Shown here piece after piece: positions 1,834 to 29,389 of a stretch of 64,000 nt of DNA (positions are counted from its first letter, which is position 1; each line of letters begins with the position of its first letter). The translations under genes and the position numbers were made by a program. The DNA is from Escherichia coli. GTDB lineage: Bacteria; Pseudomonadota; Gammaproteobacteria; Enterobacterales; Enterobacteriaceae. The stretch lies in assembly GCF_050920415.1 (NCBI RefSeq), contig NZ_CP169309.1. One strand, 5' to 3'. The notes below the pieces were generated by a model that was not told the DNA's origin, searched no databases, and was given only the letters and a program-made list of their open reading frames with translations.

Positions 1834-2022
1834 ATGCAGGACTATTTTTTGGAGTCTTTGAAGCTCCAGCGCATTGATTTTTTTCTTAAGCTTGTAGCGG
1901 CTAGTGAGTGTAGTGATGAAGAGAAGGGGCTGGCTCTGCAGTGGGTTTCTGAATTGACTGATGAACTCATGGCAAAAATCAGAAGCCACGAATACAACCG
2001 CTCAATGGATGTCATCAGCTGA
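1834..2022 (+). CDS. small hypothetical protein, possible Tum-like antirepressor N-terminal part
   Basis: 62 aa ORF with ggagga RBS 6-8 nt upstream; follows LexA box; overlaps the DinI-like frame by ~60 nt in a different frame. Confidence 0.45.
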   Translation: MQDYFLESLKLQRIDFFLKLVAASECSDEEKGLALQWVSELTDELMAKIRSHEYNRSMDVIS

Positions 2023-2032
2023 GGTGACTTTT

Positions 2033-2266
2033 ATGCGCATTGAAATAATGATCGATAAAGAGCAGAAGATTAGCCAGTCTACCCTGGACGCCCTTGAATC
2101 CGAGCTTTACCGCAATCTGCGCCCCCTGTATCCCAAAACGGTAATCCGTATCCGTAAAGGTAGCTCTAACGGTGTGGAACTGACCGGACTGCAACTGGAC
2201 GAAGAAAGAAAACAAGTGATGAAAATTATGCAGAAGGTGTGGGAAGACGACAGCTGGCTGTATTGA
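2033..2266 (+). CDS. DinI-family protein (damage-inducible, RecA modulator-like)
   Basis: 77 aa starting MRIEIMIDK...; conserved DinI motifs (MRIE, LDAL..EL, WE..W near C-terminus); gagg RBS before ATG 2033. Confidence 0.75.
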   Translation: MRIEIMIDKEQKISQSTLDALESELYRNLRPLYPKTVIRIRKGSSNGVELTGLQLDEERKQVMKIMQKVWEDDSWLY

Positions 2267-2321
2267 TTTTGTCAATAGACGCTTGTTTTTACTAATCAAA
2301 AAGGGTTACATATGAGTGAGA

Positions 2322-2352
2322 GGCGATGTCAATCAGATATCGCCTTGTTTTT
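2322..2352 (+). terminator. putative rho-independent terminator after DinI-like gene
   Basis: ggcgat...atcgcc stem followed by ttgtttttt. Confidence 0.35.
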
Positions 2353-2379
2353 TGTCAAGAAAAGAATAATAGGCTAAAA

Positions 2380-3057
2380 ATGAAAATTAATAATGTAGCG
2401 TTACCAATATCTCTTGCTGTAATCCTAACTGGTTGCGTGCCACATGCTTCTAACCGAAATATCACTGCTATTGAAGTGGTGAAGCCTGCTATTGGGCAAA
2501 GTGCTACCGCCTACATGGGCGATCCCATTATCACATCTGCTACTGGATTTAAAACGGACGTACTAGAACTTGGTGCGGCTAATGGTGCATTGTCTTCTAT
2601 CGCTGCTGGTACATATTGCAGTGAGGGGAATGGAATTTACCGCAATTATCATAACCCTCAAGCTGTTGCGTTAAAAAATCTCTATGGGCAAATCGGTAAC
2701 TATGTTGATTATGTTAGTTACGATGCTGCAAAAAATGAGATATCACCGCCAAATGGTACTTCTTATACTGCATCAGAAATTTCTATCAAACGTGTTCCTG
2801 ATGGGCTGTGTCGAGTTAGTAACTCATTGGTTAAGACTATCGAATACAATGGAAATGCAGGCGGTGTAATGAAGTTCACCTATCGTGAATTTGCAAACGA
2901 TATGGCTCGTGCAGCATTTACAACAGATTTTTCTGTAGATTCTAAGGGAAGTGACGTTATCGCTTACAAAGGTGCCAAGTTCAAAGTGAACAAGGCTGAT
3001 AACTCGTCTATTTCTTATACAATTATTTCTGGCTTTGACAAGGCTGTCACGTTCTAG
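2380..3057 (+). CDS. orphan lipoprotein (225 aa), unknown function
   Basis: Signal peptide MKINNVALPISLAVILTG followed by Cys (lipobox LTGC); AT-rich relative to phage backbone; ORF-track start 2326 trimmed to ATG 2380. Confidence 0.6.
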   Translation: MKINNVALPISLAVILTGCVPHASNRNITAIEVVKPAIGQSATAYMGDPIITSATGFKTDVLELGAANGALSSIAAGTYCSEGNGIYRNYHNPQAVALKNLYGQIGNYVDYVSYDAAKNEISPPNGTSYTASEISIKRVPDGLCRVSNSLVKTIEYNGNAGGVMKFTYREFANDMARAAFTTDFSVDSKGSDVIAYKGAKFKVNKADNSSISYTIISGFDKAVTF

Positions 3058-4171: not shown

Positions 4172-5338
4172 AACAGCTCCTCATAGGCACTCAACGGCCT
4201 GTGTTCCACCTGACTGACCTGCTGCCAGAGTGGGGCGTGATGCTCCGGCACGGTCTGCCAGCCGTATACAGCCGAACAGAGACGGTGCGATGCTACCTGT
4301 TGCTCATTACTGTAGATCCGCAGTTCATCATCCAGCGAGATCCGTATTGATACCGGCTGGCCACACAGGCTTTCCGGCACGCTGTAACGGTTCCCGCCAA
4401 CCTCGATATAGCCATCCCAGGAGACATGACGGATATCGAAGTAGCTGGTATCGAAGTCCGTACCTGGCAGCGCCTGCAGATGCACCTGTTCCTGCGTGAA
4501 GCGCTGTTCCGGTGTCTGCCTGAACTGGCGAAGTCCCGCCTGTCGGCAACGTCAGCCATCCACTGCTCCAGTAGCTGATTAACATGGGCGAAGCTGTCGA
4601 ACCGGCGGTACCGGACGAAGAAGTTTTCCTTGAGGTATTTCACCATCCGTTCCACCTTACCTTTGGTTCTGGCCCTTCGTGGACGGCAGGCCCGTGGCAG
4701 GAAGCCATAGTGATGGCCAGCAGCAGGAACCCGGAGTTGAACACCACCTTCCCGTTGTTATTTTTCAGCACTGCGGCTTTCTGGTTATCGACCAGCACGG
4801 TTTTCACGCTGCCGCCGAAGTAGCGAAAGGCGCGGACCAGTGACTCATAGGTATGTTCAGCATCCTGCTTTGGTGCCGCGAAGACATGGAAGCGACGTGA
4901 GAACCCCAGCGTATTAACCGCGAAGTTAACCCTGCATCGTTGCCCGGCAACCTCAGCCTCAACTTCTCCCCAGTCATGCTGTAGCTGGTAACCGGGCTGA
5001 GTTTCGAAGCGAACCGTTTTCTTCGATGGCCGCATCTTACGTTTGGGCTGGATGTAGTAACGCAACATGGAACGGCCACCGGTATAACCCATCGCTTTGA
5101 TTTCCGCCAGGATGACCTCGCCGTTCCAGACATTCTCAGCCAGACGCATGTCGATATAGTCCATGAACGGCTTGAGTTTGGCCATTTTGTGGCGTGTTTT
5201 TCTGGCCGGAGGTTCCGGGTATTTCAGGTACCGTCTGACAGTCCGCTCAGAGCAACCAACCTGAGTGGCAATATCAACAATATACGCACCTTGCTGGCGC
5301 ATTTGCTTTATCATGTAAAAGTCCTCTCTGCTCAGCAT
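4168..5338 (-). pseudogene. istA: istA (IS21 transposase) split by at least two frameshifts
   Basis: Three consecutive ORF fragments (4640-5338, 4293-4655, 4168-4485) together cover an IstA-like protein. Confidence 0.6.
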
Positions 5339-5485: not shown

Positions 5486-6184
5486 ATGGTTATGTTAGTG
5501 GATGACTGTCCACGATGTGGATCACAAAAAATAGCGTTTGATGTTAATGGGCTGAATTGCACTAGGGTTTACAATGCATTGGGCGGGGGTAAAACATACG
5601 AGTACGAGGTCTATTGTGTTTGCCGAGAGTGTCATAAAACGACAATGTTTCTTTGCAGACCTTTAACGAAAAATAAAACTTTAGATGGCTATAATTGGGA
5701 AAGTGGAATATTCGGCTTAAAGGAAGTTGCAGAGGTTGTTAGGCCTATATCACCGGCAGACTTAGCAGTAGAGGAGCCACCAGAGTTCTTACCTGAGCAT
5801 ATCAATAGTGCATATGAGGAAGGGGCGAAATGTTTGGCTATAGGTTGTTATAATGCAGCAGCAACCATGTTTAGGCTTTGCCTTGATTATGCCACAAAAG
5901 GACTTCTTCCTGATGGGGAGCAAGGGCCTGCGCAAAAAATAAGGAGAAGCCTAGGGTTAAGAATGGAGTGGTTATTTGATAATCATCTACTGCCTGAAGC
6001 TTTAAGGGAACTAGCTGAATGCGTTAAAGATGACGGAAATGATGGAGCGCATGAAGGTATTTTGGATAAAGCTGCTGCTGAGGATCTTGAAGATTTTACC
6101 TATCTTTTTTTAGAACGGCTTTACACTGAACCTCAACGCCTTATCGAAGCCAAGACAAGGCGTGAACAAAGAAGAAACAAATAA
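5486..6184 (+). CDS. orphan protein with N-terminal 4-Cys zinc ribbon and C-terminal DUF4145-like domain; candidate phage-encoded defence/abortive-infection gene
   Basis: CPRC...CREC motif at N-terminus; C-terminal region with LAECVKDDGNDGAHEG signature typical of DUF4145 as I recall it; agggaggag RBS; AT-rich; sits between IS21 and the portal gene. Confidence 0.6.
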   Translation: MVMLVDDCPRCGSQKIAFDVNGLNCTRVYNALGGGKTYEYEVYCVCRECHKTTMFLCRPLTKNKTLDGYNWESGIFGLKEVAEVVRPISPADLAVEEPPEFLPEHINSAYEEGAKCLAIGCYNAAATMFRLCLDYATKGLLPDGEQGPAQKIRRSLGLRMEWLFDNHLLPEALRELAECVKDDGNDGAHEGILDKAAAEDLEDFTYLFLERLYTEPQRLIEAKTRREQRRNK

Positions 6185-13734: not shown

Positions 13735-14128
13735 AGCAGTGCCTTATGTCCGCAATAACCCGGATAAGCTGCATCTGTTTGTGGATAACGGTTCGCTGGT
13801 TGCCACGGGGGCCAGCTCCATGTCATGGGAGTACCGTTATACCCTCAACGTGGTGATTGAGGATTTCAGCGGCGACCAGAATCTGCTGATGGCCCCGGTT
13901 TTGCTGTGGCTGCGTGATAACCAGCCCGATGCCATCAATAATCCGGCGTTACGGGAAAAGTTATTCACCTTTGAGGTGGATATTCTGCGCAACGATGTCT
14001 GTGATATCAGCCTCAACCTGCAACTGACGGAACGTGTGCTGGTCAGCACTGACGGAAGTGTGTCGAGCGTTGAAGCAGTAGCGGAACCCGATGAACCTGA
14101 AGAAATGTGGACGGTGAAACGTGGCTGA
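13697..14128 (+). CDS. tail completion protein R (P2 gpR-like)
   Basis: Similarity to P2 R (NPDKLHLFVDNGS, RYTLNV motifs); GTG start at 13697 after ggagcg RBS. Confidence 0.8.
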   Translation: MNKPQSLRHALNKAVPYVRNNPDKLHLFVDNGSLVATGASSMSWEYRYTLNVVIEDFSGDQNLLMAPVLLWLRDNQPDAINNPALREKLFTFEVDILRNDVCDISLNLQLTERVLVSTDGSVSSVEAVAEPDEPEEMWTVKRG

Positions 14129-14573
14129 ACTGCAGAAGGTGGACGACTGGCTGAGTGCTTTGCTGGCGAATCTGGAACCAGCCGCAAGAAGCCGAATGAT
14201 GCGCCAGCTGGCGCAGGAACTGCGCCGGACACAGCAGCAGAATATCAGGATGCAGCGCAATCCAGATGGCAGCAGTTATGAGCCGCGCAGGGTAACAGCA
14301 CGCAGCAAGAAGGGGCGCATCAAACGTCAGATGTTTGCAAAGCTGCGCACCACAAAATACCTGAGAACTGCCGCCAGCGCGGATTCTGCCAGCGTACAGT
14401 TTGAAGGTAAGGTACAGCGTATTGCCCGTGTTCATCACTACGGTCTGCGCGATCGCGTCAGTCCAAAGGGGGGAGTCATTAAGTATCCATCCCGAAAATT
14501 GCTGGGTTTAAATGAACATACTGAAAATGAAGTAAGAGATTTACTTTTAAAGTATTTATTGATGAAAAATTAG
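14121..14573 (+). CDS. tail completion protein S (P2 gpS-like)
   Basis: 150 aa; last ~30 codons are AT-rich and abut a convergent AT-rich orphan gene. Confidence 0.8.
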   Translation: MAELQKVDDWLSALLANLEPAARSRMMRQLAQELRRTQQQNIRMQRNPDGSSYEPRRVTARSKKGRIKRQMFAKLRTTKYLRTAASADSASVQFEGKVQRIARVHHYGLRDRVSPKGGVIKYPSRKLLGLNEHTENEVRDLLLKYLLMKN

Positions 14574-14578
14574 AATGT

Positions 14579-15109
14579 TTACGCTCTTAATAAACTTAAA
14601 TAACTTTTTATGCTTTGGCAAAAAGGGAAAAGGTCTATTTTAATTTTCCAGTTTTTTTTGTTTTGAACCCCAGAAGCAATAATAGAACCGTCCCAATATT
14701 TTATTCCATTTTTGCCGGTCTTTTTTGTTAACTCAAAACTTAATGCGTGAATAATTTTATTGCAGCATTCGCGTATAGAATCTTTAACATGACCATCTAT
14801 AACAAAAAGTATATTTTCATGTTCTTCAAATGCTTCTTTCTCAGGTGAGTAATCTGGGTTCCACTCATGTTCACTAGTGTCTTGGAGAATTCGTAGTTTT
14901 GTACAAAGGCTAATAAGATTGTTGCTAATGGTATATTCCAACCATCCGTTGTACGATAACTCCTCCATTTCAAATTCAGTTACTATAGAACCATCATATA
15001 CTTTCTGTGTGGAATATATACGCTGTAAATAAAATTCAGATGAACAGCATAATTGCTCAATTATTCTTGCGTGTTCTTCTATAGCGTAATAATCAATTGG
15101 ATGGCTCAT
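14579..15109 (-). CDS. AT-rich orphan gene antisense to the late operon (176 aa, no recognised domain)
   Basis: ORF on minus strand between S and V; aaagg RBS before ATG (MSHPIDYY); markedly AT-rich; ends 5 bp from S stop. Confidence 0.55.
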   Translation of the reverse strand: MSHPIDYYAIEEHARIIEQLCCSSEFYLQRIYSTQKVYDGSIVTEFEMEELSYNGWLEYTISNNLISLCTKLRILQDTSEHEWNPDYSPEKEAFEEHENILFVIDGHVKDSIRECCNKIIHALSFELTKKTGKNGIKYWDGSIIASGVQNKKNWKIKIDLFPFCQSIKSYLSLLRA

Positions 15110-15140
15110 TCTTTTACCTTTCTTTGATTGGAATTGTATT

Positions 15141-15158
15141 TGTGTCATTTACCACACA
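15141..15158 (+). promoter_or_regulatory. Ogr/Delta-type late promoter box (TGT-N12-ACA) upstream of V
   Basis: tgt-gtcatttaccac-aca ~50 bp upstream of V start. Confidence 0.4.
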
Positions 15159-15204
15159 AGGACGTATTGATGCCATAGATTCAAGGTCCGTGCAACCTAA
15201 CCCT

Positions 15205-15783
15205 ATGAACGCACAACTAACCGAAATCATGCGCCTTATCACCAACCTGATCCGCACTGGTGTAGTCACCGAAGTGGACCGGGAAAACTGGCTTTGCCGG
15301 GTTAAAACGGGCGAGCTTGAAACCAACTGGATCAGCTGGCTGACGCTGCGTGCCGGGAATGCCCGCACATGGTGGCGACCATCGGAAGGTGAGCAGGTGG
15401 TGCTGCTGAGTCTGGGCGGCAATCTGGAAACTGCCTTTGCGCTGCCCGCTGTCTATTCGAATCAGTTCGCACCACCGTCGACGTCGGCAGACGCCTGCGT
15501 GACAGAACATCCTGACGGCGGCTGGTTTGAATACGAACCCACTACCGGGCGCTGGTATGTCAGGGGCATCAAATCAATGGTCATTGAGGCCGCTGACAAC
15601 ATCACCATGAAAACCAGTGAGTTTGTACTGGAGGCTGACCGCACGCGCATTAACAGCGAAGTGGTGATCAATGGTGGCGTTACCCAGGGCGGCGGAGCGA
15701 TGAGTTCTAACGGGATCGTGGTTGATGCGCATCAGCATACTGACGTCCTGAAAGGCGGCGACACAACCGGAGGCCCGGTATGA
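15205..15783 (+). CDS. baseplate spike/assembly protein V (P2 gpV-like)
   Basis: Similarity to P2 V; start set at ATG 15205 (MNAQLTEIMRL). Confidence 0.85.
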   Translation: MNAQLTEIMRLITNLIRTGVVTEVDRENWLCRVKTGELETNWISWLTLRAGNARTWWRPSEGEQVVLLSLGGNLETAFALPAVYSNQFAPPSTSADACVTEHPDGGWFEYEPTTGRWYVRGIKSMVIEAADNITMKTSEFVLEADRTRINSEVVINGGVTQGGGAMSSNGIVVDAHQHTDVLKGGDTTGGPV

Positions 15784-28420: not shown

Positions 28421-28903
28421 TTATTCATCTGGGATCTCACCCGTTTCAAGAAAATGTATAAAGCCAGGCTCATCTATGATGATAGTGCCTTTCATCCTGG
28501 CTGCCGATACTTTTGATGGGCCTGCATTGTAACCGCAACAGAGCATCTGAAGGTTTTGGGTTACAGATGTTCTTACCGTTAATCCTTGTTCATTCGCCTT
28601 ATCAACCAACCTTTCTTTATCTGCTTTCTTAAATCCGGTGAAACACACATCGAATGTATTTTTTTTCGGACCTGACTGCTTAGTGAGATGTGAGTAGTTT
28701 TCGGGGAGGAATGACGCGCATTCCTGAATGGCTTGTTCTTGTGAATCGTATTGTTTAAGAATGCGGTCTTTTCGGAAGGTTTTTATTCGATCGGTGTTCT
28801 TACAAATGCCCTGTATGTGATTTTCGCTATAACTGATGCTCTGTATTGAGTGAACACCGATACGACCATTTGCATTGATGTAAACAAAGTGAAGTTCTTC
28901 CAT
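28421..28903 (-). CDS. orphan protein with N-terminal WYL-like region and C-terminal BRCT-like domain (160 aa)
   Basis: R-x-F-R-x-D-R-I signature (IKTFRKDRI) in N-half; C-half FDVCFTGF...CCGYNAGPSKVSAARMKGTIIIDEPGF fits BRCT pattern; AT-rich; between ogr and ssrA. Confidence 0.5.
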   Translation of the reverse strand: MEELHFVYINANGRIGVHSIQSISYSENHIQGICKNTDRIKTFRKDRILKQYDSQEQAIQECASFLPENYSHLTKQSGPKKNTFDVCFTGFKKADKERLVDKANEQGLTVRTSVTQNLQMLCCGYNAGPSKVSAARMKGTIIIDEPGFIHFLETGEIPDE

Positions 28904-29026: not shown

Positions 29027-29389
29027 TGGTGGAGCTGGCGGGAGTTGAACCCGCGTCCGAAATTCCTACATCCTCGGTACTACATGCTTAGTCAGTCTTT
29101 ACATTCGCTTGCCAGCTGCGGACGGACACGCCACTAACAAACTAGCCTGATTAAGTTTTAACGCTTCAACCCCAGGCAGGGCTTCCACGCGATCTCTTTT
29201 GGGTTTGACCTCTCTTGATCCCCGTCCTAAGAGCGGAGGCTAGGGAGAGAGGGCTCTAAGCAGGTTATTAAGCTGCTAAAGCGTAGTTTTCGTCGTTTGC
29301 GACTATTTTTTGCGGCTTTTTACGAGGCCAACCGCCCCTCGGCATGCACCTTGGGTTTCGCAAATCCCGTCGAATCCAGAATCAGCCCC
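29027..29389 (-). ncRNA. ssrA: tmRNA (SsrA), 363 nt
   Basis: Reverse complement matches E. coli tmRNA from GGGGCUGAUUCUGG 5' end to GCCAGCUCCACCA 3' end, including tag-encoding region. Confidence 0.95.

What the first reader, a model, noticed from the sequence alone, without database searches (positions are those of the whole stretch)
14470..15204. AT-rich antisense orphan gene wedged between tail genes S and V
A 176-aa ORF on the opposite strand interrupts the otherwise co-directional late operon. Its composition is strikingly AT-rich, it has a plausible RBS and no recognisable domain, its stop is 5 bp from the S stop, and the last ~30 codons of S are themselves AT-rich, as if the insertion replaced the native S 3' end. 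The V late-promoter box lies just beyond it. In P2 the S-V junction is a known site for accessory ORFs, so this is a moron likely expressed in the lysogen.
Basis: partly seen in the sequence, partly recalled or inferred. Interest (0 to 1): 0.65.

Follow-up and report, generated by a model that had tools for sequence, protein, structure and literature searches.

The report
Backward cargo gene between tail genes
A real, conserved but uncharacterised 176-residue gene sits backwards between two tail genes of a P2-like E. coli prophage, in a slot where related phages swap single AT-rich cargo genes; it is transcribed in the lysogen and most likely serves phage-versus-phage conflict, though its function is untested.

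Summary
Window 14464-15193 is a 32% GC segment in a 57% GC late region of a P2-like prophage that is 99.9% identical to phage Cartapus of E. coli LF82. It carries one minus-strand gene, 14579-15109 (176 aa, Cartapus gp14 / LF82_787). It also carries a replaced 3' end of tail gene S and its own copy of the V late-promoter activator box. The closest relatives have only 68 bp between S and V.

The gene is real. dN/dS is about 0.1 among orthologues of 60-84% identity, and all of them sit in this slot. Published LF82 RNA-seq shows it at 16-58 FPKM in four of five conditions, where S and V give 0-15.

The slot is the known P2 orf30 site. In E. coli it holds alternative single-gene cargo: TIR, FRG, DUF2971, DUF6216 and hypothetical proteins.

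The protein has no match in Pfam, NCBIfam, PADLOC or PDB. It belongs to a widespread unannotated family with invariant R73, R113, N117, K118, H121 and W154. Family members ride on several kinds of mobile element.

My best guess is a stand-alone conflict (defence) effector, possibly a divergent HEPN-like RNase. Fold and architecture resemble HEPN, but the Rx4-6H motif and a profile comparison fail. It is a new member of a known kind; interest is moderate.

The parts
14464..15193 (.). Imported AT-rich cassette (GC 0.327). It comprises a replaced S 3' end, the cargo gene, and a cassette-specific version of the V promoter region.
   Evidence: Alignment with insert-free relatives L002 and L003 fixes the left junction at about 14463 and the right junction at about 15193. 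Other cargo types in the same slot also bring their own low-GC S tail and P_V region.
14121..14573 (+). Tail completion gene S (150 aa). It is chimeric: codons 1-114 are backbone-like and the last 36 codons (14464-14573, GC 0.31) belong to the cassette.
   Evidence: PHROG 26 'tail completion', E 1e-49. The protein alignment is identical or nearly so up to residue 114 and diverged but alignable after it. GC 0.571 versus 0.306.
14579..15109 (-). Cargo gene, 176 aa, 20.6 kDa, pI 5.4, no hydrophobic segment. It equals Cartapus gp14, LF82_787 and WP_000019234.
   Evidence: ORF; annotation. dN/dS is 0.07-0.12 among slot orthologues. The AF2 model has pLDDT 90.3.
14744..14779 (-). Codons for residues 111-122, SIRECCNKIIHA, the family signature. 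R113, N117, K118 and H121 are invariant and E114 is nearly so.
   Evidence: Alignments A3 and A4. In the model this is helix 112-120, with H121 at the start of the following loop.
15117..15121 (-). Shine-Dalgarno-like AAAGG, 7 nt upstream of the ATG.
   Evidence: Sequence. An AAGG or GAGG sits at the same place in the Salmonella and Enterobacter orthologues and in IMG/VR locus L024.
15133..15159 (-). Candidate sigma-70 promoter of the cargo gene: -35 TTGTGT (15159-15154), a 15-nt spacer, -10 TACAAT (15138-15133). It overlaps the activator box of P_V. Inferred, not shown.
   Evidence: Read by eye. The consensus scan, which requires a 16-18 nt spacer, did not report it. Transcription of the gene independent of its neighbours is shown by RNA-seq.
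15141..15158 (+). TGT-N12-ACA dyad: the Ogr-type late activator box of the V promoter, carried on the cassette.
   Evidence: Pattern match. Window-wide the number of matches is at chance level, so the argument rests on position. A box starts 64-66 bp before the V ATG in all 8 related loci, empty or loaded. P2 annotates an activator site 42-69 bp upstream of V.
15205..15783 (+). Baseplate spike/assembly gene V, the first gene of the next late operon.
   Evidence: PHROGs 9992 and 6142 'baseplate assembly protein'; annotation.

Best explanation
The feature is a horizontally exchanged single-gene cargo cassette in the 'orf30 slot' between tail genes S and V of a P2-like (Fels-2 type) prophage. The explanation has five steps of decreasing certainty.

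1. **Shown.** The cassette arrived by recombination between P2-like phages. One crossover lay inside the 3' part of S and the other at the V promoter, so the cassette brought its own S tail and its own late-activator box.
2. **Shown.** The gene encodes a folded, soluble 20-kDa alpha/beta protein under strong purifying selection.
3. **Shown in strain LF82.** It is transcribed against the late operons in the lysogen while S and V are silent.
4. **Inferred, about 0.4-0.5.** The product acts in conflict between mobile elements. It would be a stand-alone anti-phage (abortive-infection-type) effector that stays harmless in the lysogen until another phage infects.
5. **Inferred, about 0.25-0.3.** The effector is a divergent HEPN-like, metal-independent RNase. 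The face R113-N117-H121 of a short helix would form its active site together with E114, K118 and R73. The arginine sits one helical turn further from the histidine than in canonical HEPN domains.

The confidence value given (0.4) refers to step 4, the conflict role. Steps 1-3 are near certain.
For: **Identity and origin**
- The region is 99.9% identical to phage Cartapus.
- Relatives about 95% identical in the flanks have an empty slot, which gives precise junctions.
- Each alternative cargo in the slot carries its own low-GC S tail and its own P_V box.

**Real gene**
- dN/dS is 0.07-0.12 among orthologues of 60-84% identity.
- All 21 loci holding relatives of at least 60% identity have the gene antisense beside V and/or S: both flanks in 18, one contig-truncated flank in 2, and a diverged flank in L028.
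- The AF2 model has pLDDT 90.3 and pTM 0.86.

**Expression**
- LF82_787 gives 28-58 FPKM in B1, B6 and MB1 where S and V give 0-5; CI gives 250-620.

**Conflict role, by association**
- In a spread sample of 31 S-V junctions on this backbone in E. coli, 21 were empty and 10 held other single-gene cargo.
- All six cargo genes examined have GC 0.31-0.37, and five of the six are antisense.
- Three of the six match PADLOC defence-candidate models: TIR to PDC-S66/SpbK, DUF2971 to PDC-S31, FRG to PDC-S15.
- More distant family members are cargo of an integrated inovirus, lie beside a capsid/portal/primase satellite-like module, lie in an AlpA element, or lie next to a TIR gene, a HEPN gene or a MazG_C gene.
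- No partner gene is conserved across these contexts.

**Enzyme-like site**
- R73, R113, N117, K118, H121 and W154 are invariant across 71 sequences of only 20-40% identity.

**HEPN resemblance**
- The invariant His sits at the end of a helix and the start of a loop, as described for HEPN.
- The invariant N117 is four residues before the His, the place of the polar residue that follows the canonical Arg.
- A Pfam HEPN family (pEK499_p136) modelled here has the same order of elements: motif helix, then a three-stranded meander, then a long C-terminal helix.
Against: **No direct functional evidence exists.**

**Against a known defence gene**
- The window protein and 10 diverse family members have no family-specific PADLOC or NCBIfam hit; the two weak hits that appeared look spurious.
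- None of 71 members has a Pfam hit at E<=0.001.
- No paper mentions the protein accession.

**Against HEPN**
- The defining Rx4-6H spacing is not met. The spacing here is Rx7H, and the canonical Arg position is C, S, W or F.
- hhalign against the pEK499_p136 HEPN family gives probability 0.15%.
- Foldseek against PDB finds nothing, best E 0.11.
- The HEPN-like element order was compared only by secondary-structure strings, not by superposition.

**Against an important role**
- Only 21 of 1037 E. coli genomes with this S-V backbone carry the gene.
- Truncated 156-157-aa variants circulate.
- It was at background in stationary LB and was not called a moron by the authors.
- Some family members sit in nondescript chromosomal contexts.
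Confidence: 0.4

Rival explanations
1. The gene serves the phage itself rather than the host. It could be a counter-defence or host-takeover factor, or an accessory of lysogeny or induction. Its low constitutive expression in the lysogen would then be incidental.
For: The 2026 survey found anti-defence genes in 28 of 1511 P2-like prophages. The gene has stayed in the same slot across P2-like lineages of Escherichia, Salmonella and Enterobacter down to 60% identity. Relatives occur in other phage-type elements, an inovirus and a satellite-like element. It is small, soluble and single-domain, like many anti-defence proteins.
Against: It is oriented against both late operons and lies far from the early region, so it cannot be part of the early infection programme. 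It is transcribed while the prophage is repressed. Invariant R/N/K/H residues across phyla point to a conserved substrate rather than a fast-evolving host target. Family members also occur outside phages.
Confidence: 0.2
2. The gene is a conflict or defence factor but not a nuclease. It would work by binding a phage or satellite component as a decoy, sensor or inhibitor, and the conserved helix face would be a binding surface.
For: The context evidence is the same as for the best explanation. The HEPN tests fail on motif spacing and on profile similarity. No solved structure with a comparable fold was found.
Against: Invariance of five polar or charged residues across sequences of 20-40% identity from several phyla is more typical of catalysis, or of binding a universal ligand, than of binding variable phage proteins.
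Confidence: 0.15
3. The gene is a host-adaptation moron unrelated to phages. It would improve survival of the lysogen in particular environments such as cell-culture medium, macrophages or the gut.
For: Transcript level rises from about 1.5-6 FPKM in stationary LB to 28-58 FPKM in the B1 and B6 conditions and 16-34 FPKM inside macrophages. It is carried by the adherent-invasive strain LF82 and by isolates from a range of hosts.
Against: CI and int rise by similar factors in the same conditions, so the change may reflect growth state rather than specific regulation. The protein has no signal peptide, no membrane segment and no metabolic or virulence domain. Family members are spread across marine and soil bacteria.
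Confidence: 0.12
4. The cassette matters in cis. A convergent antisense transcript would insulate or terminate the upstream late operon and modulate the V promoter, and the protein would be secondary or irrelevant.
For: The stop codons of S and the ORF are 5 bp apart and no intrinsic terminator was found. The candidate promoter overlaps the activator box of P_V. P2 annotates a terminator at this junction.
Against: dN/dS of about 0.1 and an invariant motif show that selection acts on the protein. Most related phages work with an empty 68-bp junction. Homologues occur in contexts unrelated to tail operons.
Confidence: 0.03

Closest known systems
P2 Orf30 and the 'orf30 site' of P2-like phages
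   Same: Same slot between S and V, same antisense orientation, similar low GC (0.34 versus 0.32), single gene, non-essential, function unknown. The site is recognised as a locus of horizontally acquired genes (PMC3091744; PMC6823313).
   Different: No sequence similarity (BLASTP E 0.22). Sizes differ: 261 versus 176 aa. P2 has an annotated terminator between S and orf30; here the two stops are 5 bp apart and no terminator was found.
Other single-gene cargo of the same slot in E. coli prophages: TIR (PADLOC PDC-S66/SpbK-like), FRG (PDC-S15), DUF2971 (PDC-S31), DUF6216
   Same: Same flanks. GC is 0.31-0.37. Each is one gene, mostly antisense, and each has its own S tail and P_V box.
   Different: The families are unrelated. 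Three of them at least match defence-candidate HMMs, whereas this gene matches none.
P2 lysogen-expressed exclusion genes old, tin and fun(Z), and the gpA-Q and Z/fun defence hotspots
   Same: They are AT-rich, horizontally acquired cargo genes of P2-like prophages expressed from the prophage. These hotspots are proven reservoirs of defence systems (PMC9122126; PMC9519451).
   Different: The locus is different. The S-V slot was not among the hotspots surveyed in those two studies. A 2026 preprint mentions defence loci 'within the late genes' without naming this junction. No defence phenotype is known for this gene.
HEPN superfamily RNases, especially stand-alone forms on mobile elements (integron-cassette HEPN 3jrt, HepT toxins 5yep/7ae2, pEK499_p136 family PF18736)
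   Different: The spacing is Rx7H, not Rx4-6H, and the canonical Arg position is not basic. There is no profile similarity (hhalign 0.15%), no Pfam HEPN hit in 71 members and no Foldseek match. There is no MNT or antitoxin partner.

Membership tests
orf30-site cargo of P2-like phages (positional class) | Lies between tail completion gene S and baseplate gene V | tested here: met
   S is at 14121-14573, the ORF at 14579-15109 and V at 15205-15783. P2 has the same layout.
orf30-site cargo of P2-like phages (positional class) | Foreign composition, and absence from otherwise near-identical phages | tested here: met
   GC 0.32 versus 0.57. The slot is empty in relatives with about 95% identical flanks. 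Only 21 of 1037 E. coli genomes with this backbone carry it.
orf30-site cargo of P2-like phages (positional class) | Homology to P2 Orf30 itself | tested here: not met
   BLASTP E 0.22. tblastn against 50,697 phage records finds only Cartapus.
Moron (autonomously expressed prophage gene) | Transcribed in the lysogen independently of neighbouring phage genes | tested here: met
   Published LF82 RNA-seq gives 28-58 FPKM in B1, B6 and MB1 where S and V give 0-5. The profiles are strand-resolved.
Moron (autonomously expressed prophage gene) | At least 5-fold above prophage background in stationary LB (criterion of PMC9928086) | tested here: not met
   Normalised count 8.97 against a cutoff of 34.4; the gene is not in the paper's Table 1.
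Moron (autonomously expressed prophage gene) | Own promoter and terminator | tested here: inconclusive
   Only a promoter-like TTGTGT-15 nt-TACAAT was read by eye. The scan found no promoter on this strand and no terminator, and the fold z-score is 0.52.
Moron (autonomously expressed prophage gene) | Benefit to the host | not testable with these tools
   Needs deletion and complementation phenotypes.
HEPN superfamily | Rx4-6H motif | tested here: not met
   The invariant residues R113 and H121 are separated by 7 residues. The positions 5-7 residues before the His, where the canonical Arg would sit (114-116), hold E, then C/A/S/T, then C/S/W/F. The criterion is taken from PMC3710099.
HEPN superfamily | Motif at the end of core helix 3 with the His exposed at the start of the following loop, and a polar N/D/H next to the canonical Arg position | tested here: met
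   Helix 112-120 is followed by H121 in the loop. N117 is invariant at four residues before the His. Solvent exposure could not be measured.
HEPN superfamily | Four-helix up-down core fold | tested here: inconclusive
HEPN superfamily | Detectable profile similarity to a HEPN family | tested here: not met
   hhalign of A4 against the pEK499_p136 alignment A5 gives probability 0.15%. None of 71 members hits a Pfam HEPN family. Only one HEPN family was compared profile to profile.
HEPN superfamily | Metal-independent RNase activity | not testable with these tools
   Needs biochemistry.
Catalogued anti-phage defence systems (PADLOC-DB 2.0) | Match to a defence or candidate HMM | tested here: not met
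   No hit for the window protein at E<=1. Ten diverse relatives give no family-specific hit at E<=10; the single weak hit, REase_I at E 0.0027 for P0049, is judged spurious.
Toxin-antitoxin module | Conserved adjacent partner gene | tested here: not met
   The cassette holds one gene. Neighbours of nine homologues are mutually unrelated.

The most novel reading that the evidence does not exclude
The gene founds an undescribed family of stand-alone anti-phage effectors carried by prophages, inoviruses and satellite-like elements. Its active site would be a displaced-arginine derivative of the HEPN RNase site (R-x3-N-x3-H). In addition, the S-V ('orf30') junction would be a further, so far unsurveyed single-gene defence hotspot of P2-like phages.
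Probability: 0.3. Interest if true: 0.6.

Novelty: new member of a known kind. Interest (0 to 1): 0.4.

Why it matters
P2-like prophages occur in a large share of E. coli genomes; 1037 of 5426 complete genomes carry this particular S-V backbone. Their two surveyed variable loci have already yielded many new defence systems.

The S-V junction behaves in the same way. It holds single AT-rich genes that are swapped together with an S tail and a promoter box, and several of them match defence-candidate models. Yet it was not among the hotspots surveyed in the two main P2 studies read here.

This gene is a clean test case:
- it is one small soluble protein with no partner;
- it has an invariant, catalytic-looking motif;
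- it has no annotation in any library searched;
- a natural host, LF82, already has transcriptomes and CRISPRi tools.

A positive phage-challenge result would add a defence family and justify mining the slot. A negative result would caution against assigning function from hotspot position alone.

Tried and rejected
- **Sequence libraries.** Pfam on the protein and on 71 family members, NCBIfam, PADLOC and PDB sequence searches with single sequence and with profiles all gave nothing. PHROGs gave only an 'unknown function' family.
- **Homology to P2 Orf30.** Rejected.
- **Profile test for HEPN.** hhalign against the pEK499_p136 family was negative.
- **Fusion partners.** The two long 'hits', P0098 and P0103, are repeat proteins and spurious. 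P0100 and P0184 only add disordered N-termini.
- **Conserved neighbour or antitoxin.** None found.
- **Donor of the AT-rich S tail.** The best phage match other than Cartapus is about 60% identical at protein level, so the donor lineage is not in the phage collection.
- **Terminator at the S/ORF junction.** None found.
- **Identity with the published Cartapus moron LF82_789.** Rejected. That gene lies about 10 kb away at LF82 2759532-2760143.
- **Literature search by protein accession.** No paper.
- **Spurious ORF.** Rejected on dN/dS, the chance calculation and the confident fold.
Full report
**What is there**

The window from its first base to about 28,740 is a P2-like prophage lying next to the tmRNA gene ssrA (29027-29389). 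The stretch 14000-15700 is 99.9% identical to Escherichia phage Cartapus (Peduoviridae, Elveevirus), the fourth prophage of the adherent-invasive strain LF82.

The late genes R, S, V, W, J and I all run on the plus strand. Between S (14121-14573) and V (15205-15783) lies a minus-strand ORF, 14579-15148, with an internal ATG at 15109. The 176-aa form beginning MSHPI is the real one. That N-terminus is conserved at the very start of nearly all homologues. RefSeq and the Cartapus record both annotate 531 bp.

GC is 0.32 for the ORF and 0.33 for 14464-15193, against 0.57 for the flanking parts of S and V. At that composition, 189 stop-free codons are expected with a probability of about 2e-7. The two stop codons are 5 bp apart.

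**How it got there**

Phage 500465-1 and Klebsiella phage KP12 are about 95% identical to the window in S and V. They have only 68 bp between the S stop and the V start. The alignment places the left junction inside S at about 14463 and the right junction at about 15193, just before the V ribosome-binding site.

S is identical or nearly so to these relatives up to residue 114. The last 36 residues are a diverged but clearly homologous S tail written in AT-rich codons (GC 0.31). The segment also contains a TGT-N12-ACA dyad at 15141-15158 that starts 64 bp before the V ATG. Window-wide, the number of matches to this pattern is at chance level. However, a box at -64 to -66 is present in all eight related loci examined, whether empty or loaded. 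P2 annotates the activator site of its V promoter at the equivalent place.

So the cassette consists of a replacement S tail, the cargo gene and a cassette-specific copy of the late promoter region. It was exchanged by recombination between P2-like phages, not inserted as naked foreign DNA. No phage in the 50,697-record collection other than Cartapus has this S tail; the best is about 60% identical at protein level. The donor lineage is therefore unknown.

**The slot is a single-gene cargo hotspot**

Of 5426 complete E. coli genomes, 1037 carry this S-V backbone and only 21 carry this cassette, always at 99% identity or more.

A rank-spread sample contained 31 junctions with both flanks. Of these, 21 were empty and 10 held other cargo:
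- DUF6216, three times;
- a TIR-domain protein, twice;
- DUF2971, twice;
- FRG, once;
- hypothetical proteins, twice.

Six of these junctions were examined in detail. Each holds one gene with GC 0.31-0.37, and five of the six are antisense. Each has its own low-GC S tail and P_V region. Three match PADLOC candidate-defence models: PDC-S66/SpbK for TIR, PDC-S31 for DUF2971 and PDC-S15 for FRG.

P2 itself has Orf30 here (261 aa, antisense, GC 0.34, non-essential). It is unrelated in sequence to this gene. The literature already lists the orf30 site as one of three loci of horizontally acquired genes in P2-like phages (PMC3091744; PMC6823313). The two main defence-hotspot studies surveyed only the gpA-Q and Z/fun loci. 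A 2026 preprint mentions defence loci within the late genes without naming this junction.

**The gene is real and long resident in this slot**

Relatives of 98%, 84%, 74% and about 60% identity occur in E. coli, Salmonella and Enterobacter. In all 21 loci examined the gene lies antisense beside V and/or S of a P2-like element:
- both flanks were detected in 18 loci;
- two loci are cut by the contig end;
- in L028 only a diverged V was detected.

Pairwise dN/dS is 0.07-0.12 wherever dS is not saturated. A Shine-Dalgarno-like AAGG or GAGG is kept upstream in the orthologues although the surrounding sequence diverges. The exact protein is on at least 1000 contigs, always labelled hypothetical. 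Truncated forms of 156-157 aa also circulate.

**Expression**

PMC9928086 provides strand-resolved RNA-seq of LF82, whose sequence is 100% identical to the window over 14470-15204. The table gives its S1 values for LF82_787 (= CARTA_14) converted to FPKM. I take columns B1 and B6 to be the DMEM cultures at two time points, from the S1 legend. MB1 and MB6 are macrophage infections; MB6 is 6 h after infection.

| Condition | This gene | S and V | CI | int |
|---|---|---|---|---|
| Stationary LB | 1.5-6 | 0-4 | 26-30 | 6-7 |
| B1 | 28-31 | 0-1 | 281-321 | 58-68 |
| B6 | 54-58 | 2-5 | 255-277 | 47-62 |
| MB1 | 30-34 | 0-4 | 604-617 | 70-81 |
| MB6 | 16-19 | 4-15 | 277 | 52-67 |

The gene is thus transcribed in the lysogen independently of the late operons, at about the level of int. 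It did not pass the authors' 5-fold cut-off in stationary LB and is not one of their two Cartapus morons. One of those, LF82_789, lies about 10 kb away.

A promoter can only be proposed: TTGTGT, 15 nt, TACAAT at 15159-15133, overlapping the activator box. The consensus scan found no promoter on this strand and no terminator.

**The protein**

It is 20.6 kDa, has pI 5.4 and has no hydrophobic segment. There is no hit in Pfam, NCBIfam, PADLOC or PDB sequences; the only hit is PHROG 18838, 'unknown function'.

Exhaustive searches find 93 representative clusters at E<=1e-3 with the single sequence and 157 proteins with the family profile. All are about 180-200 aa, single-domain, unnamed and without Pfam domains. 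AFDB50 returns 59 structural matches, all 'uncharacterized', from gamma- and alpha-proteobacteria, Bacteroidota and Chloroflexota.

Across 71 sequences of 20-40% identity, the invariant residues are R73, R113, N117, K118, H121 and W154. E114, W139, G141 and G147 are nearly invariant. The signature is [ST][IL]RExxNK[IV]xH[AS].

The AF2 model is confident (pLDDT 90.3, pTM 0.86). Its elements are helices 7-21, 24-34, 45-78 and 89-95; strand 101-105; the motif helix 112-120 with H121 at the start of the following loop; a three-stranded meander 124-159; and helix 160-175.

**Where the family lives**

Outside P2-like phages, I found members in these contexts:
- as antisense cargo of an integrated inovirus in Aeromonas, with Zot, RstB, Rep_trans and an integrase;
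- next to an HK97 capsid/protease/portal/small-terminase block and a primase, which looks like a satellite;
- in an AlpA element made of small ORFs;
- next to a TIR gene, next to a pEK499_p136 HEPN gene, and near an HTH/MazG_C pair;
- in three nondescript chromosomal sites.

No neighbour is conserved, and there are no domain fusions. The family is a stand-alone module that travels on mobile elements.

**Mechanism: what I commit to**

The context argues for a role in conflict between mobile elements. That context is a cargo hotspot shared with defence-candidate genes, expression from the repressed prophage, carriage by several kinds of mobile element, and the absence of a partner. I put this at about 0.4-0.5.

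The invariant polar constellation argues for catalysis, or for binding of a universal ligand.

The best structural lead is HEPN:
- PMC3710099 states that the HEPN motif lies at the end of helix 3 with the His at the start of the next loop. It also states that the residue after the Arg is usually N, D or H. Here H121 is in that position, and the invariant N117 sits where that polar residue would be.
- A bona fide Pfam HEPN protein (PF18736, the neighbour gene in L011) modelled here shows the same order of elements: motif helix 86-98, three strands, then a long C-terminal helix.

Against HEPN:
- The defining Rx4-6H spacing is not met. The spacing is Rx7H, and the canonical Arg position holds C, S, W or F.
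- hhalign against that HEPN family gives probability 0.15%.
- No member hits any Pfam HEPN family.
- Foldseek finds no solved relative.

I therefore do not file the gene as a HEPN member. I rate 'works like a HEPN RNase with a displaced arginine' at about 0.25-0.3.

**Rivals**

The rivals are a phage-serving or counter-defence factor, a non-catalytic conflict protein, a host-adaptation moron, and a purely cis-acting transcriptional role. The last is contradicted by selection on the protein.

**Verdict**

The gene is not an orphan. The late-promoter box is part of the cassette. Expression depends on the growth condition.

In kind, this is a new, uncharacterised member of a known class: AT-rich cargo at the P2 orf30 site. 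Interest is moderate. It would not surprise a specialist, but it is a tidy, directly testable candidate and a pointer to an under-surveyed hotspot.

Noticed in passing
window 14121-15783, compared with loci L030-L035 and L002: The S-V junction of this prophage backbone is a single-gene cargo hotspot in E. coli. Alternative cargo are TIR, FRG, DUF2971, DUF6216 and two hypothetical proteins, all with GC 0.31-0.37 and five of six antisense. Each comes with its own low-GC S C-terminus and its own P_V region, keeping a TGT-N12-ACA box 64-66 bp before the V ATG. Three match PADLOC candidate systems (PDC-S66, PDC-S31, PDC-S15).
   Followed up: partly
window 5486-6184 (+): A 232-aa gene lies in the gpA-portal ('TO') hotspot and corresponds to LF82_788. 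It has a weak PADLOC hit to PD-T7-4 (E 1.2e-6) and matches PHROG 1305 'DNA binding protein'. In the published LF82 data its signal rises from log2 4.7 in LB to 9.5 in macrophages.
   Followed up: partly
window 4640-5338 (-): A 232-aa ORF matches transposase-type PHROGs (1157, 7847). It lies in the same hotspot, where LF82 coordinates would place the moron LF82_789 on the other strand. The window strain may differ from LF82 here, or an IS fragment may overlap the locus.
   Followed up: no
window 28421-28903 (-): A 160-aa gene sits at the prophage end next to ssrA (PHROG 2561 'DNA ligase'-like; weak PADLOC PDC-S48 hit). It corresponds to LF82_783 'putative exonuclease', the most strongly expressed Cartapus moron in LB (15-fold above background).
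   Followed up: no
window 2326-3057 (+): A 243-aa ORF of unknown function (PHROG 1353) lies in a GC dip (0.417 for 2001-3000) within the early region, next to a DinI-like gene (1961-2266).
   Followed up: no
window 29027-29389 (-): A tmRNA gene (ssrA, tag ANDENYALAA) lies immediately outside the prophage end. This is consistent with integration of the prophage at ssrA.
   Followed up: no
L040 8001-8546 (Aeromonas caviae contig): A homologue of about 40% identity is cargo of an integrated filamentous (CTX/inovirus-like) prophage. It lies between the Zot gene and the integrase end, on the strand opposite to the phage genes. A second kind of phage therefore carries this family in the same antisense manner.
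   Followed up: partly
L011 943-1413 and 2454-2999: A family member lies about 1 kb downstream of a pEK499_p136 HEPN nuclease gene (PF18736). The AF2 model of that protein has the same order of elements after the catalytic helix (three strands, then a long helix), although profile comparison shows no similarity.
   Followed up: yes
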